This document shows positions 3,572 to 37,167 of a stretch of 39,142 nt of DNA, piece after piece (position 1 is the first letter of the stretch; each line of letters opens with the position of its first letter). The position numbers and the translations under genes were made by a program. Below the pieces are notes generated by a model. It saw only the letters and a list, made by a program, of their open reading frames with translations. It was not told the DNA's origin and did not search any database. This DNA is from Chiloscyllium plagiosum (Eukaryota), in assembly GCF_004010195.1 (NCBI RefSeq), contig NC_057758.1:9646162-9685303 (forward strand). Reading direction: 5' to 3'.

Positions 3572-4561
3572 AAGGGACCTCTGGCAAGTGGAAGGCCTTT
3601 AAAAGTGAGATACATAGAGTTTTAAGGTCTAGATGTTCCTGTGAAGGTGAAGAGCAAGGTTGGCAGGAATAGGGATCCCTGGATGATAAGAGATATTGAG
3701 GCTCTGACCATGAAAAAGAAGAGGTATGGCTCAGGTACAGGCAGCTGGGATTAAGGGATCCCCAGACGTATATCGGGAATAATACAGTTTACTGAAGAAA
3801 GAAATCAGGAACGTGAAAAAGGAGCACAAGATAGCCTTGGTTTAGAAGATTAGGGTGAATCCAAAGATGTACTTGAAGTATATTAAAGGAAAGAGCATAA
3901 GCAGAGCGAGAATAGGGTTCCTCAAGGACCAAAGTGGGCACATATGTGAAGAACTGCAGGACATAGATGAGGTTTTCAATGAATATTTCTCATCTGTTTA
4001 CTATGGAGAAAGAATGAAGACTTGGGGAAGTTAGTAGTGATATCTTGGACTGTCAGTATCACAGTCGAGGAGGTGTTGGATGTATTAGAATGCATGAAGG
4101 TGGATAAATCTCCTGGTCCTGACCAGATATATCCAAGAACACTGCAAGAAACGCGTGAAGAAATTGGCTAATATTTTTGTATCATCGTTAGCCACAGGTG
4201 AGATTCCGGAAGACTGGAGAGTAGCGAATGTTGCAGCCCTAATTCAAGAAGGTGTGCAAAGAAAAGCTTGGAAACTATAGACCGGTAAGCCTAATATCTC
4301 TGGGTAATTTACTTGAGAAGGTTCTGAGGAAGTAGATATACATGCATTTGGATAGACAGGGTTTGATGAGGAGTAGTCAGCATGTCTTTGTGTATGGTCG
4401 CTCATGTCTCACAAATTTGGTAGAGTTCTTTGAAGTGACCAGGAAGATTGATTAGGGCAGGAGAGTAGATGTAGTCTATATAGATTTCAGTAAGGACTTT
4501 TGTTACGTTGTAGTGGTAAACCCATCTGCTAACTAAACCAAATACACAGGCAAGTTCACCT

Positions 4562-5071
4562 TTTCATCCCGTTTCCCTCTCAGTTGAAGCAAAACGCTCA
4601 GAGACACAGTATAGTTTTACCTCCTTCATCTTTATGCTGGGCCCTGGAGGGAGAGAGAACTTGTGTATAGGGACGTGAGTTCACAATGCTCTCTGGAACA
4701 GCAGTTTTCCAATTAACTATGTATTGATTTTACCAGGAGGAGCATCTAGATAAGGCAACATACATATTAATCGGGTGACCATTACAATCATCAAGCGTCA
4801 AGATTAAGCCATCTGCTGTTACACAATGACTATCTGATTTCACATTTCACCTTATTTAATCTGACCTCATATACTGAATGCTTACAATATTATTAAATTG
4901 CTCTATGTAATGACTGCTTTTCCACCTTGTTAACCCATTACCCTTGTCTGCATACCCCATTATTAACTGCAAGTTCTAATCTGATCTGAGTCATGCTCAG
5001 CTGAATGTCTTGTTTCATAAAACTCAGAACTTAACTCCTTCCTTCCTGCTTATACCCTATACACATTTTCA
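4562..5071 (-). mobile_element. Solo LTR of the ERV-B/ERV-C family
   Basis: Homologous over its full length to 17221-17763; 4-bp TSD acct at 4558-4561 and 5072-5075. Confidence 0.85.
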
Positions 5072-5836: not shown

Positions 5837-6989
5837 TTTGTTGTGAAACCATCTGAGATATCTAGGTTAGAGCCAAAAGTTACATTTTTCAATTTTCCAG
5901 TACACTCTGTGACTGCTGGTCAGTCACATGACAGGTGCTTGCAAGCTTTCACTTTCTCTTAAAAGTACAGTAAACGCCTTCAACTTAACATTTTGATAAG
6001 GTTCCACATGGTAGGCTTCTCTGGAAGGTTAGATCACATGGAATCCAGGGGAGCTGACAAATTGGACGCACAATTGGCTTGATGGTACAAAGCAGAGGGT
6101 AATATTGGAAGGATGTTTGTCCAACTGGAAGCTCATTGCTGTTTGTTATCTATATCAACGATTTGGCTGAGAAAGTACAGGGCATGATTAATAAGTTTTC
6201 TGATGCCACTAAAATAAAGGCTGTATTGTGGACAGTGAGTAAAGTTTTCAGAAATTGCAACAAGACCTTGATCAGCTGGAGAAGTGGTCTGAGAAATGGC
6301 AAATGGATATGAATATAGATAAGTGTGAGGTCTTGCAGTTTGGAAAGTCAAATCAAGGTAGGAGTTTGATGGTGAATGGTAGAACCTTCAGGAGTGTAGT
6401 GGAATAGAAGGACCTTGGAGTTCAGGTTCACAAGTGGAGTCACAGGTAGACAGGGCTATGAAAAAGGCTTGTAGCTGCACTTGGAGTATTTGGTTACCTT
6501 GTTATAGGAAGGATGTTATTAAACTGGAAAGTGCAGAAGAAATTTACAAAGATATTGCCTCGACTCGGTGCCTCTGGTTATTGAGAGAGGTTGGACAAGC
6601 TTGGAGTTTTTTTTCTTTAGAGCATAGGAGACTGAAGGGGTCCGTTTAAACGTGGACAAGACTTTAAGAGGCATGGAATGGGTGAATGCACTCAGTCTTT
6701 TTCCCAGGATTGGGGAATAGAGGACTAGAGGGCATCAGTTTCATGTTAGAGGAGAAAGAATAAAAGGGAACCTGATGGGCAACCTTTTTATGCAGACAGT
6801 GATATGCATATTGAATATGCTGCCAGCAGCAGTGGTTGAGGCAGGTGCATTAACAATATTTGTTCGGCACTTGGAGAATTACATGGGTAGGGAAGGATGT
6901 GGGCCAAGTGCAGGGAAATGGGGTTAGCGTTGATGGACACTTTGGTCGGCTTGGACTGATTTAGGCTAAAAGGCCTGTCTATAGGTCTC

Positions 6990-7470
6990 TGTTGGGGATG
7001 AAATGAATTATGAAGTGGATGACCCGCTCATACCGGTCCAATTTAGAGGAACAATGAATCGCGCCACACAATTCTTGAGTATTGAATGTTTATTCGTGAG
7101 CTCACGGGGAATGACAAGTCAACTTAATGCTCACAAGTCACTCTGACCAGCTGCGAACTGTTAATTGTAGTATAATTAGTAATAAGGCACTTTGCCCAGT
7201 CACTAGCCCCAGGCACGTAGTGTCTAGACAGTGCTAGTTAGTAGCTGATAAGCAAGTATTAGTATTACAATAGATTCTTGTAAAAGAAGAACATTCCCAT
7301 GCTGGGTAAGTGTACACTATCAGGCGATAGTACAGCTGCAAGGTCAGCTGCCTCACTGAGCCTGGGAACGTACAAACTTAACACACACACTCTAACATGA
7401 GGTTTAAAATGGATTCCAGGCTTTTACTATGTAACAAGATGGTTGCTTTGGTTATAACAAATCTCCCACA
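6990..7470 (-). repeat. 3' LTR of ERV-A
   Basis: Imperfect inverted termini tgttgggga...tctcccaca; minus-strand AATAAA near 7089-7094; directly preceded on the minus strand by a PPT. Confidence 0.75.
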
Positions 7471-7472
7471 AT

Positions 7473-7493
7473 TCCTTCCTTTTTTTTTCTTTT
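7473..7493 (-). promoter_or_regulatory. Polypurine tract of ERV-A
   Basis: Minus strand reads AAAAG(A)nGGAAGGA, then AT, then TGTGGGAGA (LTR start). Confidence 0.75.
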
Positions 7494-7608
7494 CACCAAT
7501 CAGGAGGGCAGTTCAGAAGAATTGGCAAAAGGAGGGATATAGCCAGACCGGGGAGTTGTCTGGTGGTGGGAATTCAGGGTCATCCAGGTCAGAATAAAGG
7601 TCACCAGG

Positions 7609-10006
7609 ACCAAGAGGAATAGTCAGAGGGAAATTGAGAAACAAATTTGTAAGGAGATCTCCGTTATCTGTAAGAATAATAGGGTGATTGTGGTAGGTGA
7701 TTTTAACTTTGCAAACATAGATTGGGACTGCCGTAGTGTTAAGGGTTTAGATGGAGAGGAATTTGTTAAGTGTATGCACAAACATTTTTTGATTCAGTAT
7801 ATGGATGTACCTATTATAGAAGGTGCAAAACTTAACCTATTATTGGGAAATAAGGCAGGGCAGGTGGCTGAGGTGTCAGTGGGGGAGAACTTTGGGGCCA
7901 GCGACGATATTTCATTAGTTTTGAAATAGTGGATGGAAAAGGGTAGATCGGATCTGAAAGTTGAAGTTCCAAATTGGGGAAAGGCCAATTTTGATGGTAT
8001 TAGGCAAGAACTTTCAAAAGGTGACTGGTGGCAGATGTTCACAGGTAAAGGGTTGGCTGGAAAATGGGAAGCCTTCAGAAATGAGATAACGAGAGTCCAG
8101 AGACAGTATATTCCTGTTAGAGTGAAAGGAAAGGCAGTAGAGATAGGGAATGCTGAATGACTGAAGAAATTGAAGTTTTGGTTAAGAAAAAGAAGGAAGC
8201 ATGTGTAAGGTATAGACAGGATAGATCGAGTGAATCCTTAGAGTATAAAGTCAGTAAGAGCATACTTAAGAGAGAAATCAGGAGGGCAAAAAAGGGGCAT
8301 GAGATAGCTTTGGCAAGGAGAATCCAAAGGGTTTTTACAAATACATAAAGGACAAAAGGATAACTAAGGAGAGAATAGGACCCCTCAAAGATCAGCAAGG
8401 CGACCTTTTGTGTGGAACCGCAGGAGATGGGAGAGATACTAAACGAGTATTTTGCATCAGTATTTACTGTGGAAAAGGACATGGAAGATATAGAATGTAG
8501 GGAAATAGATGGTGATATCTTGAAAAATGTCCATGTTACAGAGGAGAAAGTGCTGGATGTCTTGAAATGCGTAAAAGTGGATAAATTCCCAGGACCTGAT
8601 CAGGTGTACCCTAGAACTCTGGGAAGCTAGGGAAGTGATTGCTCGGCCTTTTACTGAGATATTTGTATCATTGATCATCATAGGTGTGGTGCCAGAAGAC
8701 TGGAGGTTGGCTAACGTGGTGCCACTGTTTAAGGAAGGTGGTCAGGACAGGCCAGGGAACTACAGACCAGTGAACTTGATGTTGGTGGTGGGTAAGTTGT
8801 TGGAGGGAATCCTGAAGGACAGGATGTACATTTATTTGGAAAGGCAAGGACTGATTAGGAATAGTCAACATGGCTTTGTGCGTGGGAAGTCATGTCTCAC
8901 AAAGTTGATTGAGTTTTTTGAAGACGTAACAAAGAGGATTGATGAAGTCAGAGCAGATGTGATCTATATGGACTTCAGTAAGGCTTTCGGCAAAGTTCCC
9001 CATGGGAGACTGGTAAGCAAGGTTAGATCTCATGGAATACAGAACTGGCTCTAAGGTAGAAGACAGGCTAGTGGTGGAGGGTTGTTTTTCATTTTGGGAA
9101 AGCAAATTTTAGCAGAACTTTAATGCACTTAATGGTAAAGTCCTAGGGAGTGTTGCTGAACAAAGAGACCTGAAGTGCAGGTTCATAACTCCTTGAACGT
9201 GGAGTCTCAGGTAGATAGGGTAGTGAAGAAGGCGTTTAGTATGCTTTCCTTTATTGGTCAGAGTATTACATAAAGGAGTTGGGAGGTCATGTTGAGGCTG
9301 TACAGGACATTGGTTAGGCCACTATTGGAATATTGTGTGCAATTCTGGTCTCCTTCCTGTCGGAAAGATGTTGTGAAACTTGAAAAGGTTCAGAAAAAGA
9401 TTTGCAAGGATGTTGCCAGAGTTGGAGGATTTGAGCTATAGGGAGAGTTTGAATAAGTTAGGGCTGTTTTCCCTGAGCATTAGAGGCTGAGAGGTGACCT
9501 TATAGAGGTTTATAAAATCAAGATGGGCAAAGTCTATTTAACCTGGGTGTGGGCGACCAGAACTAGAGGGCATAGGTTTAGAATAAGAGGGAAAGATATA
9601 AAAGAGACCTAAGGGGCAACATTTTCATGCAGAGGGTGGTACGTGTGTGGAATGAGCTGCCAGAGGAAGTGGTGAAGGTTGGTACAGTTGCAACATTTAA
9701 GAGGCATCTGGAAGGGTGTATAAATAGGAAGTGTTTGGAGAGCTATGGGCTGGGTCCTGGCAGGTGGGCCTAGCTCAGATTACTTACAGTGTGGAAACGG
9801 GCCCTTCGGCCCAACAGGTCCACACCGACCCTCCGAAGAGCAACCCACCCAGACCCATTCCCCTACATTTGTCCCTTCACCTAACACTACGGGCAATTTA
9901 GCATGGTCAATTCACCGTGCCGCTTGGGTTGGGATAACTGGTCGGCATGGGCAAGGTGGACTGAAGGGTCTGTTTCCACGCTGTACATCTCTATGACTCT
10001 ATGACT
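7609..10006 (+). mobile_element. 5'-truncated CR1/HER1 LINE ORF2 inserted in the 3' part of ERV-A
   Basis: APE endonuclease VIVVGDFN; RT PEDWRLANVVPLFK, SQHGFVRGKSCLT, YMDFSKAF; (ctatgact)n tail; HE1 fragment nested at about 9775-9917 (-). Confidence 0.92.
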
Positions 10007-10019
10007 CAATGAAATCATC

Positions 10020-11321
10020 CACTGGTGGGGAATGTCATAAACAGGAAAAAGTAAAGCTGGGAAGAAATAACGGTATTCAGCATCAGTGTGGACCCGAAAT
10101 GGGTGCGGCATTATATTTGGAAAGTAATGATGAGGGAGAACAAAACAAAAACAGCAATGAGAACCACAATGACCTGGAGGAATGTAGAAGCCCAAGAACC
10201 AAACAAACTACCCATCCAAGTCCAAAGATCCCAGTATGTGCTAGTGTCATTGAGAATATGAGCAGCTATGTTCGTAAAGTTGTCACTGGAGTCAGGGATG
10301 TAGGTGCAGCAGTCGGAGCCGGGAAGGGCACAAGTGCCCCCTTTCTTGGCCAAAAGGTAGTTGAGGGCCATGTGATTTTGGAGGGCCACAGTCTGGACAG
10401 ACACTATTTCTGCATTAAGTAGGTCAAAAGCCAAAGCAGTGGCATTGGCAATCTCATCTCGAGTGGCGGCAATCTTCCGAACCTGAACCTCAAGTTGAAG
10501 GGTGGCATAGGGAGGGGAGAAGATAGTTCAAAGGTGCTGAAAGGGAATAAAAGAGTCCTCCTTCTATGGGGCATTGAAGCCTTAAGAGGTGACGTGTGAG
10601 AATTGAAAGGGTCAACGTATCCTAAATAGCAGCTCCAGGCCCGGAGGCAGGCAGCTAGGGGCAGGTGCTAGCACAAATGAAATAAGTGCAATTGAAAGCT
10701 AACACATGATCGCATTTGATACCAATCCAAAAGGTGGTAAAAAAGGAATTAATGGTAGTCCTGTTGGGAACAGTGAGAATAAGTGTGCTGTCATCCATAG
10801 TGGATCAGAAATCAGATGTAGAAAGGAGGATAGACAACCCAGCTTGCCGTCCTAAAGCATGTTTGCTTTCAATGCAAGTACTTCCTTGAGGGTCAGTCAT
10901 AGTTGTGACATTGGTGAGGAATAGGGATGGGGTGTGCCTGATAGATTGTAGCGAGGCTGGAACCAGCCTTCAAATGTGTCCAGCTGATTGCCACTGGAGG
11001 CAGATGTTGTCTCCATAAGTGGAGGGGGTGCCTATCAACTTTAGGAAGGATGTGGAAAGTAGTGACAGCAGCAGAACGACATTGATGCAACCACCATTCA
11101 GCGGTGTCAGATTCATTAGAATGTACAGCCCTCCAGGGAATCCCACCTTTAGGATGGAAAGGAATTCCAGCAAACCCAGCAGCCAAAGTGGCTGACCTTA
11201 TGTGCATAAAGATGTACCACATAAAGAAGGGAATTAAAATGCAATTCTTATTGGAGGCCACCAGGTTATACCAAAGACCCCGGTCAGATAAGAGCAATAT
11301 CAGAAAAATAAGCAAAGTCAA
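10020..11321 (-). pseudogene. env: ERV-A gamma-type envelope remnant
   Basis: Hydrophobic signal LLIFLILLLS; CWVC motif at about 11170-11182; basic HRRR near 10560-10570; ISD-like LQNHMALNYLLA plus CX6CC (CALPGSDCC); transmembrane VIVVLIAVFVLFSLII; frameshifted. Confidence 0.9.
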
Positions 11322-14300
11322 TCAATTGGAGGTATCTGCGGTTGTGGGTTTTGCAGGTAACGCAGCAGGAGCCAGTTGATCTCCCCCTTGGGGTGGCGCT
11401 CTCTTGCATTGCGTGGCATGAATCCATTTTGTTCTCATCTCAACCTTGAGAGCAGTTCGGGTCACCAGAAGGACTGGGAATAAATCTTTCCATCTAGGAA
11501 AGAGAGTTATTTTCAAACGATTTAATCATTGCATAGTCCCCTGGCTGGAAAGGTGCATGGGATCAATGGTTGGAACACTGTCCGCTTTGACAGTGCCATG
11601 ATTCTGAATGACAAGTTGAGAAAGGGCCTTAGTATAATCAATCCAAGACTCCTGTGTCGAGAGCAGAGCCACATCAGCGGAGAACACAGGAGACCTAGTT
11701 GTAGTTGGCATGGGTCTGCCCATTTAAATCTCAAAAGAAGTGAGGCCTGTTGTTCGGTTAACCTGATTCTGAATGGAATATAGAGCAAGCGGCAGAGCTT
11801 TAGGCCAGGGCAAACCCATATCCTGTGATATCTTAGTAAGGACCATTTTAAAGGAGCCATTCATCATTTCCACCATACCGAGGATTGTGGCTGATAAGGA
11901 ATGTGATGTCGCTAGGAAACTCCCAGAGCCTTACAAATAGCTTTAATGATTGCTGAAGTGAAATGAGTGCCCCTATCACTGTCAATGCCAGGGGTGCCAA
12001 ATCTAGGAATGACATCCCTCAGTAAAGATTTAACAACTGTCCTAACATCATCATCCTTGTTGATAAACACCTCAACCCATTTGGAGAACATACCAACAGT
12101 CACCAGTAAATAGTGGGATCCCAGCCTTGTTGGCAGATGCACAAAATTTGTCTCAAGTTTCACAAATGGGCCAGCAGGGACAGGAAGATGGTCAAACTTG
12201 GCCAGTGGCTTAGCGTTATTGTTTTGTAGGCAAATATGACAGAGCGACAAGAAAGCACAAGCAGCAGTAGTGAAGCCAGGGGTATATCAAAAACATGTAA
12301 CTTATGGCACATGCTCCACTTACCAACATGACCAACTCCTTGAGCGGCCAGGGCTAAGGCATGTAGATGAGACTTGGGGCAGATGGTGCGGCCATCAGGA
12401 AGCGTAAGAAGACGAAGGGATTCAGATTCAGTGGCACCTAAATCAGCCCAATGAAGGTGCTCAGATTGAGGGGGCTGCCTGCTGAGTATCACGGATGCCC
12501 TCCAAAACGTCCGGAACAATGGGAAACTGGCGTATGTTAGGGGTATGTAAACCCTGCGCATTTCCATTAGTAGCAGCCACCCGAGCGGCCCTATCAGCAA
12601 AGGCGTTGCCACGGGTGACATTATCTCCAGCAGATATGTATGCAGTACATTTTATGACAGCCACAGCAGAAGGGAGGACAATGGCCTCCAAAACATTATT
12701 AATAAGCTGACCATGTTTATCTGAAGAAGTGATGAAACCCCCTATGCTTCTGGAGAGAGCCAAAATCATGCACCACTCCAAAAGTATAGTGGGAATCAGT
12801 ATAAATGTTAACAGACTTTCTAGTAGCTAAAATGCGTGCCCATGTAAGAACAAAACCTCAGCTGCCTGCAGAAGTACCGTTAGGGAGCGCTGCAGATTCA
12901 AGGACATCAGAAGGTGTGCAGACAGCATAGCCTGCCAGTGCAGGAAGGAGGGTAGCGGGATTCAAAGCCGAGTGCGGCGCAGAATAAGATTAGATCAGGA
13001 GAGTAGCCCATTCCTGATGAAGGGCATTTGCCTGAAACGTTGTCTCTTCTGCTCCTCCAGTGCTGTGCTTTTCCAGCACCACACTCTTGACTCAGATCTC
13101 CAGCATCAGCAGTCCTCACTTTGACCTCAAGCCCCTATGCCTGGAAGCAGTCAAATGTTAAGGAGCTGCAGAATTCAGCAGCAGGGAGACCGAATGTCGA
13201 ACAAAAACAGTGCATGGATGATCCAGCATAAGGGGGGTAGACTTCTCAACTAATATCGAGGCAGCTTGCCAACATGCTGGCATTCCCCATACAACAGGTG
13301 GCAACTGAACAGAGTAAAAGGCTACAGAGTGCAGGAGATCCCCATACACTTGTGTCAGAATTCCAGAGGCATAACCCTCCCTCTCAGCAACATAAAGTTG
13401 AAACAGCTGTGAATAATCTGGAAGACCCAAAGCAGGAGAAGAGCTCAGTACAGATTTCAATTGTTCAAAAGCCTGTGTCTTTTCAGGGTCCACTGTAGTT
13501 CTGATGGTTTCTTAGGCGAAGATGCTTATCTCAAAGGCACATCAATCTCACAAAGATCAAGAATCCAGTGTCTGTAGTAATTCACCATCCCCAGAAATGA
13601 CATCAGTTCAATACATGTTGGAGGAGGGGGATTTGTGATGGCCTTTAAGCGATCAGGAGCAAGTGTCCTTGTACTCTGCGATATTGTCAAACCCAAGTAA
13701 TGAACAGTGGGCTGGCAGAGCTGCATCTTATCAATGGAAATCTTGTGGCCATCCTGTGCCAAGCACTGAAGCAGGGCAACAGTATCTTGCATGCAGGCAT
13801 TTGATGTAGTGGAGGCAACGAGTAAATTGTCAGCATATTAAAAAAGGACCCTGTTGCAAGGCATGTGGAGGGTCTCAAGGGTACACTGAACAGCGGAAGC
13901 ATAAACAGTGGGGCTCTCTGTATACCCTTGGGGAAGCCAAGTCCATGTGTATTGATGGCTGCCGAAAGTAAAGGCAAAAAGGTACTGACTATCAAAGGAC
14001 AATTTAACAGAAAAGGACATTCGTGTCGGGGACTACAGGGGAGCAAGGAACAACAACAGCATTGACAGCCCGTAGATCCTGCACAAACCTTTACCTGTCG
14101 GGTTTGCCAGGTTTTGGAACGGGCAAAATAGGGATATTACAGGGGCTTTGTGTAGGAACAAGAATGCCCTGTTCTATAAGGGAAGCAATAACAGGCCTAA
14201 TGCCTTCGGTTGCAGCGGGTGTGAGCAGATACTGACGGACCGAGGGTAGGTGAGTGCCAGCTTTTAAAGTAAGTGTGTGGAGGGGCAGAAACGACTAAAC

Positions 14301-15300
14301 CAGTATGGTTAGGATGGAAGGCCCGTAGCACAGGTGACAAATCATCTAAAAGCTGCGGGCGACTGTAGGAAAGAGGGACCGAGGGGTCCAGCATAGTGGA
14401 GGTAGTGTTAGTGGTAGAAGCAGTTAGGCCCAAGCAGAATCTGTCCGAAGTGAGCGCAGCAGCGTACAAGGATGACAAATTACCAGGAACGAGGGGATCG
14501 AATGAACAGGGAAGTAAACAAAGATGCACATGCATAGAGTAAAATCATCAAGCGGCCAGAGGGTTTTAAGGAGAACGGGAACAAAAGGAGACGCAGCAGA
14601 GTGGAAAACTTGAGATTGCGAAGTGGAAAGTTCCGGAAAACCGACATAACAAAAGCCAGTAAGAGTAATATCAGAAGTCGTATTTAGGTGACAGTCAGCA
14701 AGTGCAGAGTATGACAGATCAGGAGTGCAGAGCTGGGCAGCGGTGCAATGAAGGGACCTGTCAAAAGGATCCAGGGTAGAAAAGAAATCAAGGGGACAAA
14801 GGGGTGATTTGCAGTTGTGTGACGAGGGAATGTAAAATCGAGCAAAGCGGTTCAGTAGCACAGTGCCTGCTGTAAATGACAGCCATCAGTGGGGAAAATG
14901 GTGGGGGGCTCACATGGCAGCACATAGCGTTACATAGTGAGTTTTGGGGATTTCTAAGATCAGACTCTTAGGGGAACAATGAGTAGAGGTGTAAAGTTTC
15001 TAGAGAGTCTCACAGCCCAGCAAGGCAATCAGACAAAAGGGAGAAATAATGTGAGTTGGGAACTGTGACAGGTCCAATGGTAATAGGGATAGTATCAGAA
15101 AGGGGCTCAATCAAAGAAATACCAGAGGCATTGACAGTATGGACAGAATTGGAACTGAGGACTACATCCGCAGAGGGAGATGGAGAAGAATGAGTGGCCC
15201 CTGAATCCACCAAAACCGGAATAGAATGCTCTCCCAGCTCCACCGTCATCATAGGATTTTCATATGGGGATCGGGAGAGTCCTATAGAGGTGGCCTGCAC
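11322..15300 (-). pseudogene. pol: ERV-A pro-pol remnant (PR, 2H-like insert, RT, RNase H, IN)
   Basis: PR VLVDSGATHS; RT PILPVPKP..RFVQDLRAVN, YTWTWLPQGYTESP, YADN; RNase H VNIYTDS; IN FSKWVEVF, IPRFG..IDSDRGTHF, C-terminal WIHATQCKRAP; many stops and frameshifts. Confidence 0.93.
13010..13129 (+). mobile_element. Penelope-like terminal fragment with a degenerate minimal hammerhead, inserted in ERV-A pol
   Basis: attc CTGATGA a gggc attt gcct GAAAC GTT; homologous to 35322-35449. Confidence 0.65.
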
Positions 15301-15329
15301 CATCACCACCTCGCGTGGCAGCCCTAAGC

Positions 15330-17219
15330 ACGAGGGGAACGGGGGGGGAAATAACATAAGGCTGGTATTGGCATTGTGGATCAAAGATGGCATGTGGGAG
15401 CGCAACCTGTTGCGAAGAAGCCACACAGCAGTTTGCTTCCCAGTGCCCAAGTCGACCACAAGCCTAACATTTGATGAATCTTTTCAGGATGGGCTAAACC
15501 TTGTGATTGAGGGGGAACAAAATCTAATCAAGGATAGGCATCTTTGTCACCTTTAGAATTAAACTGACCATGTCTATCCATGTTATTTGGTGTATGAAGA
15601 GTATCCTTCCGCAAGGCAATCTGCCAAGTGAGGTTCTGAGCTCTATTTGTGGGCGGCACGGTGGCACAGTGGTTAGCACTGCTGCCTCACAGCACCAGAG
15701 ACCCGGGTTCAATTCCCGCCTCAAGCAACTCTCTGTGTGGAGTTTGCACGTTCTCCCCGTGTCTGCGTGGGTTTTCTCTGGATGCTCCGGTTTCCTCCCA
15801 CAGTCCAAAAATGTGCAGGTTAGGTGAATTGGCCAAGTTAAATTGCCTGTAGTGTTAGGGAAATGGGTCTGTGTGGGTTGCGCTTCGGCGGGTCGGTGTG
15901 GACTTGTTGGGCCGAAGGGCCTGTTTCCACACTGTAAGTAATCTAAAACCTGGGCATGATGAGGCAGCAGGCAATTAATAAGGGTTTGAACAGCCAGTTT
16001 CTCATTATCCTCTATAGGACTGCTAGCTGAATCTTCCCATGTATCTTTAAACGAGCGAGAAAACCAGAGACCGTCTCAGTGGCTTTCTGTAAGCAGCATG
16101 TAACACCACCAAATCGTTGTGCTGTCTGGTGGTGCTTATGATGGCATCCCTGACGCACCTACCTAACCAAACAGAGCCCTCATCAGCCATGTCCCAGTGT
16201 TGAGGGAAAATTGATAGAGCCTTTAACTGTAAACCAACGGGAGCCATAAGCCAGATGCAGTAAAGTCTGCACATCCTGCAGGAATCTGTCACAAATACCA
16301 CAGATTTGTAAAAGCCGATTATAAAAAGGAACAGGCCGCTTTATCGGATCTGGAGCATCCTGTAACATTCCACGGACTTCCGCATGGGTCCAATGTTTGT
16401 CAAGTGGCGTGCGTCCTATCATTATTCTAGAGAATTGTGGCGCGAGATGACTGTCCAAGCTCTGAGGGGGCGCTTCCCTCAGAGTTAAGATGCAACTGTT
16501 GTTCATTTAAACAGGTACCATAGGGATGGCCAGGGAGTGTAGAATCAGCTGGTGCAGTGATACATTAGAATCCGGCTGGGATGTTGCAGGACCACCCCTC
16601 TTGGGGATGAGACTCGAGTGGTGCAGAACCCACCTGCTCACTGTTGCAAGTGGCAACAAAAGCAGCAATCTCATCCATAAGGAGCTCAGGGTCAGAATGT
16701 GAAACAAAGAGTTTGGAGTACTGAGGGCAGTCAGGCAGGGGTGCAGAGGAAATAGGTACAGGAGAGGGAGGGTGTTCACGGGGGTCCTTAACTCTGGGAG
16801 GCTGGTATCCTTTAGCAACCTCTTTCAATTTCTCAAGCAATGTGAGCATGTACTTAGAATCTCAGGCGGAATCTCCATACCTTCCCTGAATGTTGACTAA
16901 CCAATAATCAAGCTTATCTAATTTAAATGCACCTGCGTAAAGCCAGTTTCCATGGGACCACCCATATAGATCAAGGGTAAAGGGAATAACATAACAACTA
17001 TTACCCATTTCCCTCCAAACGATGTCGGTTGGTGAATCCGGGGGGGGGGGGGTACCAGCAGTTCTCCTATCTCATTCTTGCACTTCACGTATTTACCGTG
17101 GCACTGCTGAGTTCTTTTCAAAGGTTCCAAGTGTTGCGGACCACCCTTCACAGCAGGACATGTAGCTTCATCGCTGGGGGCAGCCTATCGCCGTCAATCT
17201 TAGAAAGTTGCGATCCCAT
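15330..17219 (-). pseudogene. gag: ERV-A gag remnant
   Basis: ATG at 17219 gives MGSQLSK (myristoylation-type start); capsid-like WTHAEVRGMLQDAPDP..PVPFYNRL; zinc knuckle C*ACGRLGHWEANC at about 15428-15470. Confidence 0.8.
15649..15946 (+). mobile_element. HE1-type SINE inserted in ERV-A gag
   Basis: gggcggcacggtggcacagtggttagcac (A box), gggttcaattccc (B box), V-SINE-like core, CR1-like tail. Confidence 0.9.
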
Positions 17220-17220
17220 T

Positions 17221-17763
17221 TGTTGTCCCGTTTCTTCCCCACACCCCCCATCCTCAGTCGAAGCAAAATGCTCAGAGACACAGTATAGTTTTACTTCCTT
17301 CATCTTTATTCCAGGCCCTGGAGGGAGAGAGAACGATTACCCTCGTTCTCACACAGACATGAGTTCTTTGTGTTCTCTGGAATAGCAGTTTCTTAATGAT
17401 TATGTAGTCATTTTGCAGGGAGGAGCATCCAGGTAAGGCAACATATATATTGATTGGGTGACTGTTATAATTAGCGAGCATCAGTAGTAAGGCTTAAGTC
17501 ATCTGCTGTTACACAATGAATAACTGGCTTCACATAATACTTTTCACCTTGTTAAACTGACTTATGTACTGAAGGCTTCCACTATTGTTAAATGGCTCAA
17601 CATAACAAACATTTTTCCACCTTGTTAACCCATTACCATTGCCTCCAGCACCCCATTGTTAACTGCCAGTTCTTATCTGAGTTATGCTCAGCTGAACCTT
17701 TTGTTTCACAAAACTCAGAACTTAACTCTGTCACTACCTGATTTTACCTTATACACATTCTCA
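17221..17763 (-). repeat. 3' LTR of ERV-C
   Basis: TG...CA termini, same boundaries as the TSD-delimited solo LTRs; minus-strand AATAAA at 17305-17310. Confidence 0.88.
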
Positions 17764-17777
17764 TTCCCTCCTTTTAT
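17764..17777 (-). promoter_or_regulatory. Polypurine tract of ERV-C
   Basis: Minus strand ATAAAAGGAGGGAA directly followed by TGAGAATG (LTR start). Confidence 0.8.
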
Positions 17778-18115
17778 CATTTCACGCTAACCGATGGCAT
17801 TACTAGATTTCATAAGACTCTGACAGCCAGTACATAAGCAAGTTATTGATGTACAATATGCAGTGATTATAACAAAAATTGCTAGTCCATTATAGTAATT
17901 AGAATTTGAAGAATCCTCCCATGTGGAAAAAAAAATTCACAAGTTCTTAAATCCACAGTCCTTAGTGACCACTCTATCCCCTCCAAATTGAGTAGAAATA
18001 AGCCAGTTCTCCAAACTCTTCTTCAGTAAAATCCAACCTGAAAACAAAATTCAGTCTGTCCTTGAGCATCACTCCATGGAGAAATCTGAATTCTTTGATA
18101 ATGGCAGTTAAATAC

Positions 18116-18430
18116 TTAACAAAACTAATGAGAAATCCATCCTTCCAGAGATGCTTCAGAAGGAGAATACCAGTGCATCTGAGTGTGCAGTGCTGTAGCT
18201 ACGGCAGCAGAATAGGTGAATGCGGCTCTCTTTGCACCTGCTCTACTGTTAAGTGTAACAAAGCCAACCGGCTGTTGTTTTGTTAGCTTGATCAGTGAAT
18301 CTTCATATCCCTTAAGTGATTGAAAGACAAGGTAAAGCTCACGTGGTTTAATGTCCATAGGAAGGCCACTGACAAAAAGCGTACCAACCTCCTCTTCACT
18401 GCTGTTAGTTTGTTCACTTTTCAGGCTCAT
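18116..18430 (-). pseudogene. RBPMS2: Intronless, internally deleted RBPMS2/Hermes (RRM protein) retrocopy
   Basis: [66 protein letters not shown] fused to [20 protein letters not shown]...GWISH*FC*; matches the RBPMS-family RRM start and the RBPMS2-type C-terminus (W..RQFC). Confidence 0.88.
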
Positions 18431-19789
18431 GACTGGGGAATCCGTTGGATCAGATTGTGGATGGGTGGGTGGTGGTCCAAAGGCATGCTTTATCTGTGAC
18501 TGGAGAAACTCTAGAGATGATGTAAGCTGCTGAAAGTATCTTTGCATTTCTTCTTTCATTCCTTCCTTACCAAGGTGGATATAAGTATAGTCATACATTT
18601 AACTACATTCAGTTGTGTATCCGCCTATTTCAACCTTCTTTGAATTCTTGAAGTCTATTACTCTGTTCACTATTTATGACATTATCAAGTTTTAAACAAT
18701 CCGTAAACTTCTAAATTGTACTGCCTAAGCAATTCACTTAATTATAAACAACAATCAATGGTCTTAAAATCAAATCCTCGAGGGACCCCATTCAGGTTAT
18801 TCAAAAATTATTTTCCTTAACAAATTGATACTTGGCTGATGTGTAAGCTGTCAGGAAAAGTATTTCAAAAGTCTGGAACAGCAAGAGAACAACAAAATGT
18901 TTCCTATGCTTCGGCAATTGAAGAGGCAGTTTCCGTTCAGATTTAAATGTCAAATGTTCGAGGGAAACAAATGCTGAATATTTTAAAATATGTTCTACAA
19001 ATGAAACTTCCCGAATAAAACAGTTGGAATTGCAGTGGCGACTTTGGTAGAGATCAACATTTTTTTGAATTTGCAATATGAAGGAGGCCAATGAAGTCTT
19101 AACAATAACTGACAGAACTGAAACAGCTCAGCCTCAAGTTCTAACATACTCTAGAAAACCTTAATTAACCATAAACTAAAAATGCACTCTTCTTTTTATA
19201 AACACTCTGCACAGCAGCATAAAGATATTTTAATGTAATACACTCATCTGACTAAAGCATGACCACTGACCCAGCTGTGTTTTTTTTAACAGGCATTGTG
19301 AATTTCAAACAAATCAGGGGCTCAAGGCACTCCGTTTGTTTTAAGGTTACAAGTTTGATCATTTAAAGAATGACATAATGTTGAACAATTTCAACGTAAA
19401 AACCAAGTCTGCCCCACTACACAGTCCACAAAACACATTGAATTGAAATCCTCATTCAAACAAGGCAAAGCAGTTACTTAAAAGGATTTTCCGAACCAGT
19501 ATTTTAACATACCAACCTGTTTAAACATCAAGCACTCTCAGCATGGCACAATCTACGTTGAAACTTGCCTTTTTCAACCCAAGTATTAGTACAACATTAA
19601 ATTCAGCGTTTCTCTTTTTCTTGCATCCTCTCACTGAAATTGCACTTATAAAAAGAGAGAGCCCTCGCAGTGGACCACATGGTGTCACAATCCAAGCCTC
19701 TCTCTTCCCCCAGAATAAAGTCTTGCAGAACCTCAAATTTTACAACTAGAGGGCTTTAACCCCTTTCTCACATTACTCCTCACAGGGGC

Positions 19790-20070
19790 TTGACCCCCCA
19801 ATTAAATACAGAACCTGGCTTAAACACAGAGAGCTCAAAGCTCAACACAGTGCAGGGGACTTGAACTTCAAATCAACCACCCAGTAGACTTGAACCCCAG
19901 TACTGAGCAGAGGACTCTAACGTCAACTAAACCCACCCCAGGGGACTTGACCACCAGTACCGTGCAAAGGACTCTAACCTTGACCAAACCCATGCCAGGG
20001 GACTCAACCGCTAGTACTGCACAGAGGACTCGAATCTCAATCACACCCCCTCTCCCCCCAGTGCAGCGCA
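19790..20070 (-). repeat. Degenerate tandem repeats (about 57-bp period) in the ERV-C leader
   Basis: Recurrent caggggacttga..c.agtac.g..c.gaggactc.aa units; related units at 32030-32180 in ERV-B. Confidence 0.7.
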
Positions 20071-20306
20071 GAAGATTCATAAACTCTGTCTGCCAGCATG
20101 CTTGCGAAACTGCGTCTCTCGACTGAGCTAATTACTGTTGGAGGGATTTATAGGATAAAGAGCGATTGAATGAGGGAACCATATCTGACACACAGGAATG
20201 TTGAGAGGGACCAAGGTTTAAAAGCTTACCTTGTGGGTCCGTCTGTCTTGAGACATTAATGTTCCGGATGGCCACTGACACCGTCCAGTCGTAGCTATCC
20301 GTTTGA

Positions 20307-20324
20307 ATCCTGCCGACTACGCCA
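20307..20324 (-). promoter_or_regulatory. Primer binding site, tRNA-Ser
   Basis: Minus strand TGGCGTAGTCGGCAGGAT, complementary to the 3' end of vertebrate tRNA-Ser (...ATCCTGCCGACTACGCCA), 4 nt from the LTR end. Confidence 0.88.
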
Positions 20325-20328
20325 ATAT

Positions 20329-20545
20329 TGTCATCCCGCTTCCCCCCACACCTCAGTCAAAGCAAAATGCTCAGAGACACAATATAGTTTTACCTCCTTC
20401 ATCTTTAATCCAGACCCTGGAGGGAAAGAGAACCATCCCCATGTGCACAAAGACATGAGTACACTGTCTTCTCTGCAAAGCAGTTTCTTAATAAGTTATA
20501 TAGTCATTTTACAGGGAGGAGCATCCAGGTAAGGCAACATAGTTA
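20329..20545 (-). repeat. Truncated 5' LTR of ERV-C
   Basis: Homologous to 17221-17445 and shares the variant gcatccaggtaagg with it; truncated by Penelope/CR1 sequence. Confidence 0.85.
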
Positions 20546-28345: not shown

Positions 28346-29931
28346 ATGATATAACTGACCACTGAGACAGAGTCCCCATGTTCTCCATTTCCCAGCCAGC
28401 CAAGCTTTTTTCTCAGTACAGGGTATTTATGCTATCAAGCCTCTTTGGAATTTTGTGTTTCTGAGAGATCCCTTCTTGTCCTTCTATATGCCAGGGAATG
28501 TAGGCTGTGTTGACAGAGACTTTCCTGACAGGAGAGTACCAGAAAGATGGGGTTTGCCTCCTTGTAATAGTTGTAATGTGTATTCAGGGATTACAGGCAC
28601 ATGTTGCGAAGGTAGTACTGTTATCATGAGAGATTTATTTTTGCCTTATAGATGGTGTGCAAAATAAATTGCATGTATAATGTGACGGATAGTTTTATGC
28701 AATGCCAACAAGGTGGTTTTCTAAATCAGTATTTTGAGGGACAACCTTGGAAATAGAGTATTTTGAATCTGGTATTATGCAATAAAAAGGCAAATAATTA
28801 CCCTATAGTAATGTGACCTGTAGGAGAGACTCATGATGTGATGGTATTTTGTACTGAGTTTGACATTGAAATTGGATATTGTGAAACAAAGCTTAAGGAC
28901 TTGACAGTTCATAACTCTTTAGTGTTATTTAATTTAAATCTAATATTTAATCTGATTAATGGATTATACACTGATTATAATTGCAGTAAATGCTGGCCTC
29001 GCCAGCAATGTTCCTCATCCCATGAATAAGAAAAAAAATAATGATATCATGAAGTATGAACTTGCTATTATTCAATCAGTTTCACATCCCCTATTATTGA
29101 TGAATTTAGATTAACTTTAAAACATGCCAGCAACCACTAATCATCTTCTTGTATTTCCCACAATTGCTTATAACTGCAGGTATCCTACACTGCTGTCTCT
29201 CAGGCTCACTCTCACTTAGAGTCTTGTCTGAGGGGACTGCTTTGAAGCACCTTGGGAAGTTTTACTATGTCAAAGTATGTGGAAATATAAGTTTATGAGT
29301 GAAGGAAAATGCTCGGAGACACAGTTGCTTTACCTTCCTTTATTCCAGGTCCTGGAGAGAGAGAACAATCGCTCATGTGCACAGGGGCATGAATTCATGG
29401 TCTTCTCTTAAACAGCAGCTTCTCAATGAATTATATAGTCATTTTATAGGGAGGAGCATCCAGATAAGGCAACAATACATATTTATAGGGTGACTGTTAC
29501 AATCAACGAGTATCGTTAGCAGAGGCCAAGCCCTTTATTGTTATACAATGGGTGTTCTTAACTTTGTTAACTGGACTCATACAATGAATACTTTTCCCCT
29601 TGTTATCTGCGAATGGAATTCTGAAGGACAAACTTACTAAACTCACTCTAGAAACAGGACTGAATCGGCTAAAGGCCCTGCCCCTCGTCCTGTACGTCAG
29701 GAGGCCGAGAAAAGTCAGAGATGTCTAAGGACTGCCATTGAGGTAGTCTGTGTATCCAAAGGGCACAATGGTCAGTAATACTAGAAATACTAATTCCCCC
29801 ATCTGCACAAGTACCTGATCGAGACATTCTCTGGCATTTGAATCTATCAGCAAGGTTGAGGCTGAGAGACGGAGTAACCACAAACTGAATAAGGGAACTC
29901 TGTTGCCCAAAACGAACTGTGAGTTTAGAGG

Positions 29932-32389: not shown

Positions 32390-32715
32390 ATATTATCGTC
32401 CCGTTTCCCCCTTCAGTCGAAGCAAAACACTGGGAGACACAGTTGTTTTACCTTCTTTTATTCCAGGACTTGGAGAGAAAGCTAGTGATCGCCATGTGCA
32501 CAGGGACATGAGTTCACGGTCTTTGCTCAAACATGAATTAGATAGTCATTTTATAGGGAGGAGCATCCAGATAAGGCAACATACATATTGATAGGGTGAC
32601 TGTTACAATCAGCGAGTATTGATAGCAGAGGCCAAGCCCTTTACTCTTCTACAATGGGTGTTCTTAACTTTGTTAACTGGATTCATACAATGGATACTTT
32701 ACCCCTTATTAGCTG

Positions 32716-32934
32716 GAAATGTGTTGCTGGAGAAGCGCAGCAGGTCAGGCAGCATCTAGGGAACAGGAGAATCGACGTTTCGGGCATTAGCCCTTCTTCA
32801 GGAAAGGCTTCCTGAAGAAGGGCTAATGCCCGAAACATCGATTCTCCTGTTCCCTAGATGCTGTCTGACCTGCTGCGCTTCTCCAGCAACACATTTCCAT
32901 CTCTGATCTCCAGCATCTGCAGACCTCATTTTCT
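32716..32934 (+). mobile_element. Palindromic Penelope-like terminal repeat insertion in the ERV-B 5' LTR
   Basis: Inverted arms of about 90 bp centred near 32806; 14-bp TSD ccccttattagctg at 32702-32715 and 32935-32948; hammerhead core in each arm. Confidence 0.8.
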
Positions 32935-34711
32935 CCCCTTATTAGCTGACCTTGCATACTGAATGCTTTCAATATTGTTAAATGGCTCTACGTAATTACT
33001 GCTTTTCCACCTCGTTATCCCATTACCCTTGCCTCCAGCACTCCATTGTTAACTGTAAATTCTTATCTAATCTGAGTCATGCTGAGGTGAACCTCTTGAT
33101 TCACAAAACTCAGAATTTAACCCTTTCTCTGCCTGCATATATGCTACACACATTCTCACCAGGCCTAGAGCAGTATGGGCAATGGCAAGCAATGTGTAAA
33201 AATATTGCGTGAATGAAATAACCTGATTATTTGATCAAAAGAAGAATTCAGAGTTTCCTTTTTTAGGTTTAAACAATGAATTATATATCTCTTCTAATAA
33301 GTGACCATTAGCTTATTTCATACATTTGCATCTCATTAGCTGTTATTTTCCATGCAGCTCATAGTTCTTCCCTTCTGAGAAATTCGATTTGAACTAGTTT
33401 CAGGCATGACGGTCAGAGTGGTTACCTGTTGGCAGCTACTGGTTTCTTCCTTGTTGAAAGGGCTTTGTCCTACTGTGTCTTCACACAATGTCTATGAAAT
33501 ATTCAGAGGTGCTGTTTTCCCCAATGCACGTCAGCATCAGCAAATGCTCATTTTCACCACGTACCAGGCCTGCTGTCTGTCTAAACCGCACACGACTTCA
33601 CCACTTTCATATTTCACTTTGAGCTCATGAACATCTGTGATTTGCACACTTCTGGCAGGTTGCTTTAAACACCGAGGCGCGCACATGCAGCTCTACAGCA
33701 TAAATCTTACAGGTCTTGGCTTCATTCTTCCTGCTTCCTCACTTTGCACTGACTTTAATCTGGGCAGCCTTTTTTTGGTTTGCTTTGTTGTTTAATGCAA
33801 AGGAAGAGGCAGGTGACTTGTCACAGTCGGGATGGTCCAACAGGCAAGGAGGTGGACATGTTGCCAAACAATACTGTGCGACATTTAATGTTACACTTAC
33901 CGCATATACTAGCAGCTTGAGTGATACACTATGCATACTCCAACCAAATGGTGGCAATTCAAATGGGACAGTCCTTGGTGTTGTTTGGGGGAACGACAGT
34001 CATTCAGCGGGAATATAAAACTTTACGCCCTTTGGTTCTTGATGTTGTGCTGACCTTTATCCGACTCTGAGGTCAAGCTAACCTACGTATGTTTTATTTT
34101 ACTATCATCAATGTGCTTATCAAAAGTACCTTAAATGTCCCTATGTATCTGACTCTACCAGCACTGCTGGCGGTGCATTGCACACAAGCACCACTCTTTG
34201 TAAAGAACCAACCTCTGATATCTCTCCTAAATCTTCCTCCAATTGTCGTCCCATTTTCCTCTTAAGAAGTAGCAAAACATTCTGAGACTCGGTATGGTTT
34301 TACCTCCTTCATCATTATTCTCTCCCTGGAGGGAGAGAGAACAATTGCCCGTGTGCTCAGAGACATGAGTCCACCGTCTTCTCTGGAACAGCATTTTCTT
34401 AATGAATTATATAGTCATTTTACAGGGAGGAGCATCCAGATAAGGCAACATAAATATTGATTGGGTGACCATTACAATCAGCAAGTGTCAATAGTAACGA
34501 TTTAGCCATCTGCTGTTACACAATGAATGTTCGTAATCTTAACTGGCTTTACATAATGAATACTGTTCACCTTGTTCAACTGACTTTACATGCTGAATGC
34601 TTCCAATATTGCAAAATGGCTCTATATAATGAATGTGTTTTCACCTTGTTAACCCATTACCATTGCCTCCAGCACCCCATTGTTAACTGCAAGTTCTTAT
34701 CTAATCTGAGT

Positions 34712-35449: not shown

Positions 35450-37167
35450 CTTATCTAATCTGAGTCATGCTCAGCTGAACCTCTTGTTTCACAAAACTCA
35501 AAACGTAACTCTTTCTCTACACACATTCTCGCAATCACCTTAATATTATGCCCCCTTGTGATATCCATTTATGCCCTGAGGTAAAAGTTTCTGACTATTC
35601 ACTCGATCTGTATCTCTCATTAGCTTGGACACTTCTCACCCTTTTTCGCTCCAATGAGGATATCTTTAGCTCCCTCAATCTTTCTTCATAAGACACATCC
35701 TCCAGTCCTGGCAGCACCCTGGTAAATCTCTGCACCCTCTCGAAAGCTTCCACATCCTTCCTAGAATGAGGCAACCAGAACTGAACATAATATTCCAAGA
35801 GTGATTTAACCACTGCTCGACAGAGCTGCAGCATAACTTTGTGGCTGTTAAACTCCATCCCCCACTAATGAAAGCCAACACACCATATGCCGCCTTAACA
35901 ACCCTATCAACTTGAGTAGTAACTTTGAGGGATCTATGGACATGGACCCCAAGATCCCCTGTTCCTTCACACTGTCAGGAATTCTGTCTCGAACTGTATT
36001 CTGCATTCAAATTCAACCTTCCAAAATGAATCCCTTCACATTTTTCCAGGTTGACATCCATCTGCTACTTATCCGATTTTTGCATCCTGTGTATGTCCCA
36101 TTGCAACCTACACCTGCCCTCCACACTATCCACCACTCCACCAACCTTCGTGTCATTGGTAGACCTACTAACACTCCTTCCACTTTCTTATCAAAGGCAT
36201 TTATAACAACCACAAAGAGCAGAGGTCTCAGAACCAATTCCTGCGGAACATCACTTGTCACTGAGCTCTCGGCTGAATGCTTTCCATCTACCATCACCCT
36301 CTGTCTTCTATGGGCCAGCCAATTCTGGTCCAGACAGCCAAATTTCCCTGTATCCCATGCCACCTTACTTTCTAAATGAGCCTACCAAGAGGAGTCTTAT
36401 CAAATGCCCTGCTAAAATCCATAGTCACGACATGCACTACTCTACCTTCAATGCATTTTGTCACATCCTAAAAGAATTCTATAAGGCTTGTGAGGCATAT
36501 CCTGCTCCTCTCAAAGCCATGCTGACTATCTCTAATCAAACTAAGGATTTATAATTGCTTGGAAATCCAGTCTCTGAGAACCCTCTCCAATAATTTACCC
36601 ACCACAGACATAAGACTGACTGGTTTATAATTCCCAGGATTATCCCTACTGGTATTCCTTTTCTTGATCAAGGGAATAACATTTGCCACCCTCAAATTAC
36701 CTGGTATTAATCCAGTTGACAATGAGGACGCAAAGCACATTATCAAAGGTGTCGCAATGTCTTTCCTCGCTTTCCTGTGGTAACCTTGGGTATATCCTGT
36801 CTGGCTCAGGGGACTTATCTATCCTTATGTTTTTCAAATTTTTCAGCACATCCTCCTTCTTAACATCAACCTGTTTGAGCATATCAGCCTGTTTCACGCT
36901 GTCCTCGCAAGCGACAAGGTTCCTCTCAGTAGAGAATACTGAAGCAAAGTATTCATTAACTACCTCCCCTATCTCCTCCAACTCCAGCCATAATCTCCAC
37001 TATCCCTGATCGGCCGCACCCTCACTCTGACTATCATCTGGTTCCTCATGTAAGTGTAGAATACCTTAAGCTTTTCCTTAATCCTATTCGCTAAAGCTTT
37101 TTCATGCCCCCTTCTAGCTGTCTTAAGTGCATTCTTCAGTTGCTTCCTGGCTACCTTGTAACTCTTG

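What the first reader, a model, noticed from the sequence alone, without database searches (positions are those of the whole stretch)
17221..20545. Non-autonomous endogenous retrovirus carrying a host RBPMS2 (Hermes) mRNA copy in place of viral genes
Seen: on the minus strand the order is 5' LTR (20545-20329), perfect 18-nt tRNA-Ser PBS, leader, about 1.3 kb of non-viral sequence, an intronless RBPMS2-like CDS (18430-18116) in sense orientation, about 340 nt, PPT and 3' LTR. I see no poly(A) tail or TSD around the retrocopy. Known: RBPMS2/Hermes is a multi-exon RRM protein abundant in oocytes and the Balbiani body, and retroviruses capture cellular mRNAs by RT template switching, as in v-onc transduction. 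Inference: this is a fossil transducing retroviral vector that picked up a germline RNA-binding-protein mRNA and kept all cis elements needed for mobilisation. I know of no such case in sharks but cannot verify novelty.
Basis: partly seen in the sequence, partly recalled or inferred. Interest (0 to 1): 0.85.

Follow-up and report, generated by a model that had tools for sequence, protein, structure and literature searches.

The report
Shark retrovirus relic carrying RBPMS2 mRNA
This is one dead copy of an ancient retrovirus-derived element that picked up a spliced piece of the shark's own egg-cell gene RBPMS2 and was then copied hundreds of times; such captures are known, but here the steps of the capture can still be read in the genome.

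Summary
Minus strand: truncated 5' LTR, tRNA-Ser(AGA) PBS, leader, 1.25 kb of unknown origin, integrase stub, spliced RBPMS2 mRNA, env stub, PPT, 3' LTR. The insert is not a whole CDS: 255 nt are deleted, removing the end of the RRM. It sits between pol and env remnants, so it is not surrounded by 'non-viral' DNA. The genome holds 572 candidate copies; 39 of 39 fetched have retroviral neighbours, and 15 of 17 readable ends show 4-bp TSDs (10 perfect). Intermediates survive: env-bearing parent proviruses, about 39 copies with a longer RBPMS2 insert (12 examined; 9 carry a different LTR with a tRNA-Ser(GCT) PBS), and one gag-pol-RBPMS2 provirus. Both capture junctions have 8-nt microhomology, as in template-switch transduction. 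An LTR/PBS swap onto a second retrovirus preceded the large burst. Copies decay near neutrally (pN/pS 0.82-0.98), so RBPMS2 was most likely a passenger. LTR divergence is about 13%, and the insertion is shared with a second species. Precedents are known (crocodilian KITLG and nectin3 captures, FAM8A1). I found no shark report. This scan found the same family earlier at another locus (e1-8025832).

The parts
20329..20545 (-). 5' LTR (LTR-A family), 3' ~217 nt only; most of U3 lost, abutting an unrelated repeat fragment
   Evidence: 86% to 3' LTR positions 321-522; K2P 0.121
20307..20324 (-). Primer-binding site, tRNA-Ser(AGA)
   Evidence: 20-nt perfect complement to genomic tRNA-Ser(AGA) plus CCA
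19850..20306 (-). Leader shared with the LTR-A provirus family; candidate splice donor (GT at 20229-20228); 57-bp tandem repeat 19852-20040
   Evidence: match to window 32345-31998; GT in 10 of 15 copies where the site aligned, of 39
18595..19850 (-). Family-specific segment of unknown origin; ~100-codon open stretch (19127-18801) with no credible homologue; candidate splice acceptor AG 18874-18873
18446..18594 (-). Integrase remnant: N-terminal piece joined to the C-terminal helix (core deleted), plus ~30 nt of unknown origin; reads in frame into RBPMS2 in this copy
   Evidence: (match to env-bearing relatives lacking RBPMS2)
17914..18445 (-). Captured spliced RBPMS2 mRNA: ~25 nt 5' UTR, ATG 18430, codons 1-72, 255-nt internal deletion near 18227, C-terminal codons, ~200 nt 3' UTR; no poly(A)
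17809..17913 (-). env remnant: membrane-spanning segment and tail of the parent provirus
   Evidence: (71-80% to L107, L147, L148, L149)
17764..17800 (-). Pre-PPT block of the LTR-A provirus family and polypurine tract (17775-17764)
   Evidence: (92% to L153 over 37 nt)
17221..17763 (-). 3' LTR (LTR-A), complete, 543 nt
6989..17220 (-). Context, not part of the element: a different, broken gag-pro-pol-env provirus with its own LTR (7471-6989); the element sits immediately before its gag start

Best explanation
A germline class I (MLV/epsilon-like) endogenous retrovirus captured the spliced host RBPMS2 mRNA once, by reverse-transcriptase template switching, and its defective descendants were spread by helper proviruses. 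Steps: (1) Shown: a parent provirus with gag-pro-pol-env, LTR-B and a tRNA-Ser(GCT) PBS existed. (2) Shown by junctions, mechanism inferred: RT jumped from pol onto the RBPMS2 5' UTR and back from the 3' UTR into env, each time at 8 nt of homology. This replaced the integrase C-terminal domain and nearly all of env. A displaced ~100-nt RT piece at the 5' junction indicates one more switch. (3) Shown: derivatives lost pol pieces and parts of the insert by further deletions. (4) Shown by junctions, order inferred: one derivative recombined with a second retrovirus family (LTR-A, tRNA-Ser(AGA) PBS) just before a shared PPT block and in the leader, and took its LTRs, PBS and leader. (5) Inferred: packaged and integrated in trans by that family's proteins, it reached roughly 500-550 surviving copies in a burst. 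RBPMS2 was captured probably because it is abundant in oocytes, and it rode along as a passenger. All copies examined are now decayed.
For: 572 DNA and 796 protein-level candidates. Of 39 fetched non-self loci, 39 have at least one retroviral neighbour, 37 the integrase stub, 38 the env stub, 31 a 3' LTR and 19 both LTRs. 4-bp TSDs: 10 perfect and 15 within one mismatch of 17 readable pairs (12 of 39 A loci, 5 of 12 B loci); 0 of 100000 shuffles reach 10. Host gene with 8 exons on G000:C40; copies follow the spliced mRNA. Env-bearing relatives without RBPMS2: L146-L149. gag-pro-RT-RH-IN-RBPMS2 provirus L144, broken by many stops, with an LTR-B-type 3' LTR start. Microhomologies ACCCCCTC and TGGGAGGA. 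LTR-A belongs to a pol- and env-bearing family (L153) and shares the pre-PPT block. Star-like tree of 55 rows: tips median 0.069, host branch 0.042, A and B separated by ~0.017. pN/pS 0.82 (A-A), 0.92 (B-B), 0.98 (A-B) over 71 codons. The deletion removes beta-4 and the loop that recognise CAC RNA (PMC4783296 passages).
Against: Three deletion junctions of the large family keep the integrase-RBPMS2 frame (modal spacings 31, 179, 219 nt). That is about 1 in 27 by chance and hints at translation, though only 19 of 37 copies are still in register at the integrase-RBPMS2 step. Genome counts are first-look candidates; only the best 40 or 150 were scored, so fetched loci are biased toward the best-preserved. 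The origin of 1.25 kb of the element is unexplained. The helper is inferred from shared LTR, PBS and leader, and from 32 gag candidates; trans-mobilisation was not tested. The selection test covers only 71 codons. The tree bootstrap had not settled, and two A rows fell on the B side.
Confidence: 0.85

Rival explanations
1. Same capture history, but the RBPMS2 RNA worked in cis: the retained 5' and 3' UTR segments steered element RNA into the oocyte Balbiani body or germ plasm and raised germline transmission.
For: All 54 copies compared keep mRNA ~99-120 to ~313-339 and part of the 3' UTR, while two independent deletions remove the middle; two of them were matched only to position 757 because of a later insertion. 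Zebrafish rbpms2a transcripts localise to the Balbiani body (PMC6049948, Fig 1 legend passage). Protein-level neutrality fits an RNA-level role.
Against: No enrichment of CAC, UGCAC or UUCAC in the segments kept by all copies. Copies were found with these segments as queries, so retention is partly built in. Zebrafish rbpms2b transcripts are not Balbiani-localised. The LTR swap alone can explain the larger burst. I have no evidence on germ plasm in shark oocytes.
Confidence: 0.12
2. The element made a useful protein: first full RBPMS2 from an env-like spliced RNA, later an integrase-helix/half-RRM/C-tail fusion that oligomerised with host RBPMS2 and favoured spread.
For: Three in-frame deletions. 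The kept C-terminal ~38 codons match the region that Xenopus Hermes needs for dimer formation (PMC4798249 passages). Candidate donor and acceptor flank the unknown segment. Three of 12 B copies keep the whole CDS span.
Against: pN/pS between families is 0.98, and net A-B divergence is not lower at nonsynonymous sites. Ten of 13 B copies share a deletion that removes the C-terminus and stop. Germline localisation of Rbpms2 needs an intact RNA-binding domain, which the large family lacks. In RNA run X21, 3 of 1051 laid reads are 99%+ alike, depth is on both strands and no joint is listed; X22 laid none.
Confidence: 0.1
3. A LINE inserted an ordinary processed pseudogene into a provirus, which then amplified.
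For: LINE-type RT fragments are abundant in the window, and one such event before amplification would also give many copies.
Against: The insert stops ~200 nt into a 3' UTR whose first poly(A)-signal-like hexamer lies ~590 nt further on. No A-tail. Viral sequence between integrase and env is replaced, not duplicated, and both joins carry microhomology.
Confidence: 0.03

Closest known systems
CrocERV31 with nectin3 and CrocERV29 with KIT-ligand (Chong et al. 2014, PMC4299795; passages read)
   Same: Ancient ERV lineage that carries a host mRNA between pol and the 3' LTR; nectin3 replaces env as RBPMS2 does; shared by related host species.
   Different: Six and nine copies reported, with ORFs under purifying selection. 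Here about 570 candidates, a truncated and neutrally decaying insert, loss of gag-pol, and two LTR backbones.
LTR-mediated retroposition in metazoans, incl. HERV-K/FAM8A1 and mouse IAPEy cases (Tan et al. 2016, PMC5131818; passages read)
   Same: Partial mRNA inside LTR-element sequence, microsimilarity at switch points, no poly(A) or own TSD, sense orientation, re-mobilisation from one switch event.
   Different: Those are young and few per gene (3, 7 and 10 retrocopies in mosquito, zebrafish, chicken). This one became a large ancient family with parent and intermediate forms preserved.
Acutely transforming retroviruses (v-src, v-sis; PMC13297096 passages read; junction mechanism recalled)
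   Same: Host mRNA replaces viral genes, helper dependence, 3' recombination into env at short homology.
   Different: Fixed in the germline; the cargo is an RNA-binding protein, not a growth gene; no sign of a selected product.
Zebrafish ERVs whose interior is replaced by cellular genes (PMC8672886; passages read)
   Same: Fish LTR pairs around host-gene sequence.
   Different: From the passages seen, no template-switch junctions or multi-copy families were shown for them; here pol and env stubs fix the capture site.

Membership tests
LTR retroelement integrated by integrase | Two direct LTRs with TG...CA ends | tested here: met
   3' LTR complete in the window, 5' LTR partial; both LTRs in 19 of 39 fetched loci
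LTR retroelement integrated by integrase | PBS complementary to a host tRNA, and a PPT | tested here: met
   Ser(AGA) for LTR-A; B-family PBS fits genomic tRNA-Ser(GCT) with decay; PPT
LTR retroelement integrated by integrase | Short TSD, different at each locus | tested here: met
   4 bp; 10 perfect, 15 within one mismatch of 17 readable pairs. Not testable on the window's own copy, whose 5' end is lost
Class I (gamma/epsilon-like) endogenous retrovirus | RT closest to MLV-type enzymes, YVDD motif; gag-pro-pol-env order | tested here: met
   RT piece of L144 best matches MMLV RT (E 1.4e-9; foamy-type 5.6e-7); Pfam RT, RNase H, rve and a TM heptad hit below cut-off
Class I (gamma/epsilon-like) endogenous retrovirus | Placement in a pol phylogeny with reference genera | not tested
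Retroviral transduction of a host mRNA | Introns removed; sense orientation | tested here: met
   Exon junctions 1/2, 2/3, 3/4 and 7/8 in the window copy, 6/7 in L045, all in L031
Retroviral transduction of a host mRNA | Viral sequence replaced, microhomology at joins, no poly(A) or own TSD | tested here: met
   8 nt at each join; A runs of 5 or less in 22 of 22
Retroviral transduction of a host mRNA | Re-mobilised after capture from a single event | tested here: met
   Shared junctions and deletions across loci on many contigs
Functional transduced gene (v-onc-like, or CrocERV KITLG/nectin3-like) | Intact, constrained captured ORF | tested here: not met
   RRM truncated; pN/pS 0.82-0.98; in-frame stops in codons 1-71 in 13 of 41 A-type and 9 of 13 B copies
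Functional transduced gene (v-onc-like, or CrocERV KITLG/nectin3-like) | Expressed from the LTR | tested here: inconclusive
   About 2% of one RNA run gave weak two-strand depth, mostly under 90% alike, no joints; a second run gave none; tissue unknown
LINE-mediated processed pseudogene | Poly(A) tail and long TSD around the insert | tested here: not met
Named Repbase/Dfam family | Match to a deposited shark LTR family | not testable with these tools
   No such library is offered

The most novel reading that the evidence does not exclude
The element kept the RBPMS2 segments because they are an oocyte RNA-localisation signal. A retrovirus would then have stolen a germ-plasm zip code and used it to enter the next generation's germline, and kept it across a change of LTR backbone while the protein decayed.
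Probability: 0.12. Interest if true: 0.85.

Novelty: new member of a known kind. Interest (0 to 1): 0.48.

Why it matters
It is an unusually complete natural record of oncogene-style transduction in a germline: parent virus, first capture, deletion series and backbone swap all survive in one genome, with readable junctions. Among the papers I saw, captured host mRNAs in vertebrate ERVs number under ten copies each; here there are several hundred. It also explains spurious 'RBPMS2-like' gene models in carpet sharks (P0051 equals locus L062 over 129 residues) and gives a set of dated insertions shared between species. If the captured RNA proved to be a germ-plasm targeting signal, it would be a new way for a retroelement to raise its own inheritance.

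Tried and rejected
1. The downstream gag-pol-env region as part of this element: rejected; its relatives carry another LTR (window 7471-6989) and their native sequence continues exactly at 17220. 2. The missing U3 or the host provirus's leader nearby: no match in the window or in the next 10 kb. 3. Origin of the 1.25-kb segment: no nucleotide or translated match to parent or helper proviruses beyond leader repeats; its open stretch gave only two repeat-protein hits judged noise and Pfam E above 0.08. 4. A 4-nt microhomology at the 255-nt deletion: rejected; whole-CDS copies read like the host there, leaving 1 nt. 5. Origin of ~65 nt at the 5' join: not found in parents, helper or host locus. 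6. CAC-type localisation motifs: not enriched in kept segments. 7. Absolute dating: the epaulette-shark rate is per generation (7e-10; PMC10587355 passages) and gives ~94 million generations, too old to use directly; the crocodilian rate quoted gives ~170 million years. Neither is reliable here. 8. Sequencing-run index: no RNA holder listed. 9. Literature: searches listed no report of this element (listings only); (RBPMS2 + shark + retro) found 0 papers. Subscription journals, Repbase and Dfam were not searchable, and no supplements were read.

Full report
What was checked. The finding lies on the minus strand of the window, which is G000:C49:9646162-9685303. The host RBPMS2 exons translate to the protein P0024, which its source names Chiloscyllium plagiosum, so the organism is very likely a bamboo shark.

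Anatomy. The 3' LTR runs 17763-17221. The 5' LTR is only its last ~217 nt (86% identity; K2P 0.121 over 198 nt). The PBS at 20324-20307 is a perfect 20-nt complement of genomic tRNA-Ser(AGA). The leader has a 57-bp tandem repeat and matches another LTR-A provirus in the window. Then come 1.25 kb of unknown origin, a 150-nt integrase remnant, the RBPMS2 copy, an env remnant, and the PPT.

The insert is spliced mRNA, but not a whole CDS. The host gene has eight exons across about 106 kb on C40. The window copy matches exons 1, 2, 3, part of 4, 7 and 8 back to back. A 255-nt in-frame deletion removes mRNA 340-594, so Pfam RRM_1 covers only 55 of 70 positions. The lost part holds beta-4 and the loop that read CAC RNA in human RBPMS (PMC4783296, passages). 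The copy ends ~200 nt into the 3' UTR, with no A tail: runs of 5 or less in 22 of 22 copies with an exact PPT-LTR junction, of 51 examined.

It is a large family. The RBPMS2 segment gives 572 candidates (40 scored, 40 matched) and 796 at protein level (150 scored). The unknown segment gives 553 and LTR-A 2200. I fetched the 39 non-self loci. All 39 have a retroviral neighbour: integrase stub 37, env stub 38, 3' LTR 31, both LTRs 19. These are the best-scoring loci, not a random sample. TSDs are 4 bp. Ends were readable in 12 A and 5 B loci; 10 pairs are perfect and 15 within one mismatch, and no shuffle of 100000 reached 10.

Intermediates survive. Host exon 5, absent from the large family, gives 40 matches: the host and 39 copies. 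Of 12 such copies fetched, 9 carry a different LTR, LTR-B, with a PBS that fits tRNA-Ser(GCT). Three keep the whole CDS span and nine share another deletion, 584 to 767. A search with an integrase core from one of them found relatives without RBPMS2; four fetched (L146-L149) carry pol and env remnants. L144 is a gag-pro-RT-RNase H-integrase provirus, broken by many stops, that runs in frame into the same deleted RBPMS2 as the window and ends in an LTR-B-type start. Its RT best matches MMLV RT, so the lineage is class I.

Junctions. In LTR-B copies the integrase helix is followed by ~65 nt of unknown origin, a displaced ~100-nt RT piece, and then the RBPMS2 5' UTR. RT piece and UTR share ACCCCCTC. 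At the 3' side the UTR joins env just before its membrane-spanning segment at TGGGAGGA. The large family and L144 lack ~180 nt at the 5' join, cut at a shared CAA. The last 37 nt before LTR-A match L153, a pol- and env-bearing LTR-A provirus, at 92%, while the 105 nt before them match the LTR-B parents. Both viruses share a nearly identical pre-PPT block. This places a backbone swap just upstream of the PPT.

History and age. A tree of 54 copies and the host is star-like: tips median 0.069, host branch 0.042, A and B apart by ~0.017; support is rough and two A rows fall with B. LTR pairs differ by K2P 0.132 (A, n=17) and 0.149 (B, n=9). Contigs of a second organism bridge the 3' LTR-gag junction at about 96-97% identity in 2 of 2 runs laid, so this insertion predates that split. 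A Hemiscyllium ocellatum gene model begins with the same deleted form (P0004). The copies have the short N-terminus of the bamboo-shark protein, not the longer ones of Carcharodon, Scyliorhinus or skate, so capture probably came within carpet sharks (inference). A Mesozoic date is plausible but not shown.

Did RBPMS2 help? pN/pS over codons 1-71 is 0.82 within A, 0.92 within B and 0.98 between them, so there is no sign of protein constraint. Against a pure passenger: three deletions keep the integrase-RBPMS2 frame, and the kept C-terminus is the region Hermes needs to dimerise (PMC4798249, passages). But germline localisation needs an intact RNA-binding domain (PMC6049948, passages). An RNA-level role remains open, since zebrafish rbpms2a RNA sits in the Balbiani body, but CAC-type motifs are not enriched in the kept segments. 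In RNA run X21, 1051 reads were laid; over the element depth is low and on both strands, only 3 reads are 99%+ alike, and no joint is listed. X22 gave none.

This copy's setting. It sits directly before the gag start of an unrelated provirus whose relatives continue at exactly 17220. That provirus's 5' LTR and leader are missing together with the element's U3, which fits a nested insertion followed by one deletion (inference).

Comparison and verdict. It works like retroviral transduction and meets the tests for an LTR-mediated mRNA capture; it fails the test for a functional transduced gene. Precedents: crocodilian KITLG and nectin3 captures (PMC4299795, passages) and LTR-mediated retrocopies including FAM8A1 (PMC5131818, passages). 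Searches showed no report for sharks; Repbase, Dfam and supplements were not seen. Verdict: real, a new member of a known kind, notable for copy number and preserved intermediates.

Noticed in passing
window 6989-17220 (-): A different, broken gag-pro-pol-env provirus with its own 3' LTR (7471-6989), interrupted by SINE- and LINE-type inserts; 52 gag candidates in the genome.
   Followed up: partly
P0004 (Hemiscyllium ocellatum gene model): The same deleted RBPMS2 form is fused to an astacin (hatching-enzyme-like) domain. Either an annotation artefact or an LTR-driven chimeric transcript.
   Followed up: partly
L062:5018-5404 (G000:C4): One copy is annotated in databases as an 'RBPMS2-like' gene (P0051, identical over 129 residues).
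   Followed up: partly
L154 (-) and L153 (+), between protease and RT: The LTR-A provirus family has an extra stretch with two HxT motifs, like a 2H phosphoesterase (label recalled; Pfam gave no such hit).
   Followed up: no
window 19852-20040; L044, L060: The 57-bp leader repeat has 3.4 copies here but expands to long arrays in some copies.
   Followed up: no
window 18801-19127 (-): An open stretch of 85+ codons in 17 of 33 copies that hold the region (at least one runs through an N gap); no homologue found.
   Followed up: partly
window 4561-5071, 29301-29615, 32393-33158, 34243-34711, 35454-35520: Five more LTR-A pieces cluster in this window, including a solo LTR and a gag-only provirus; short inverted-repeat elements sit inside some.
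   Followed up: partly
L133: The upstream LTR is itself preceded by a PPT, suggesting tandem proviruses that share an LTR.
   Followed up: no
L055/L056; L062/L137: Two pairs of unusually close copies: an assembly duplicate or segmental duplication, and a later duplication or conversion.
   Followed up: no
G000:C26:40.84-40.95 Mb (L083, L087 and a third match): Three longer-insert copies lie within ~115 kb; the two fetched keep the whole CDS span and are cut by an insertion at the same place, suggesting local duplication.
   Followed up: no
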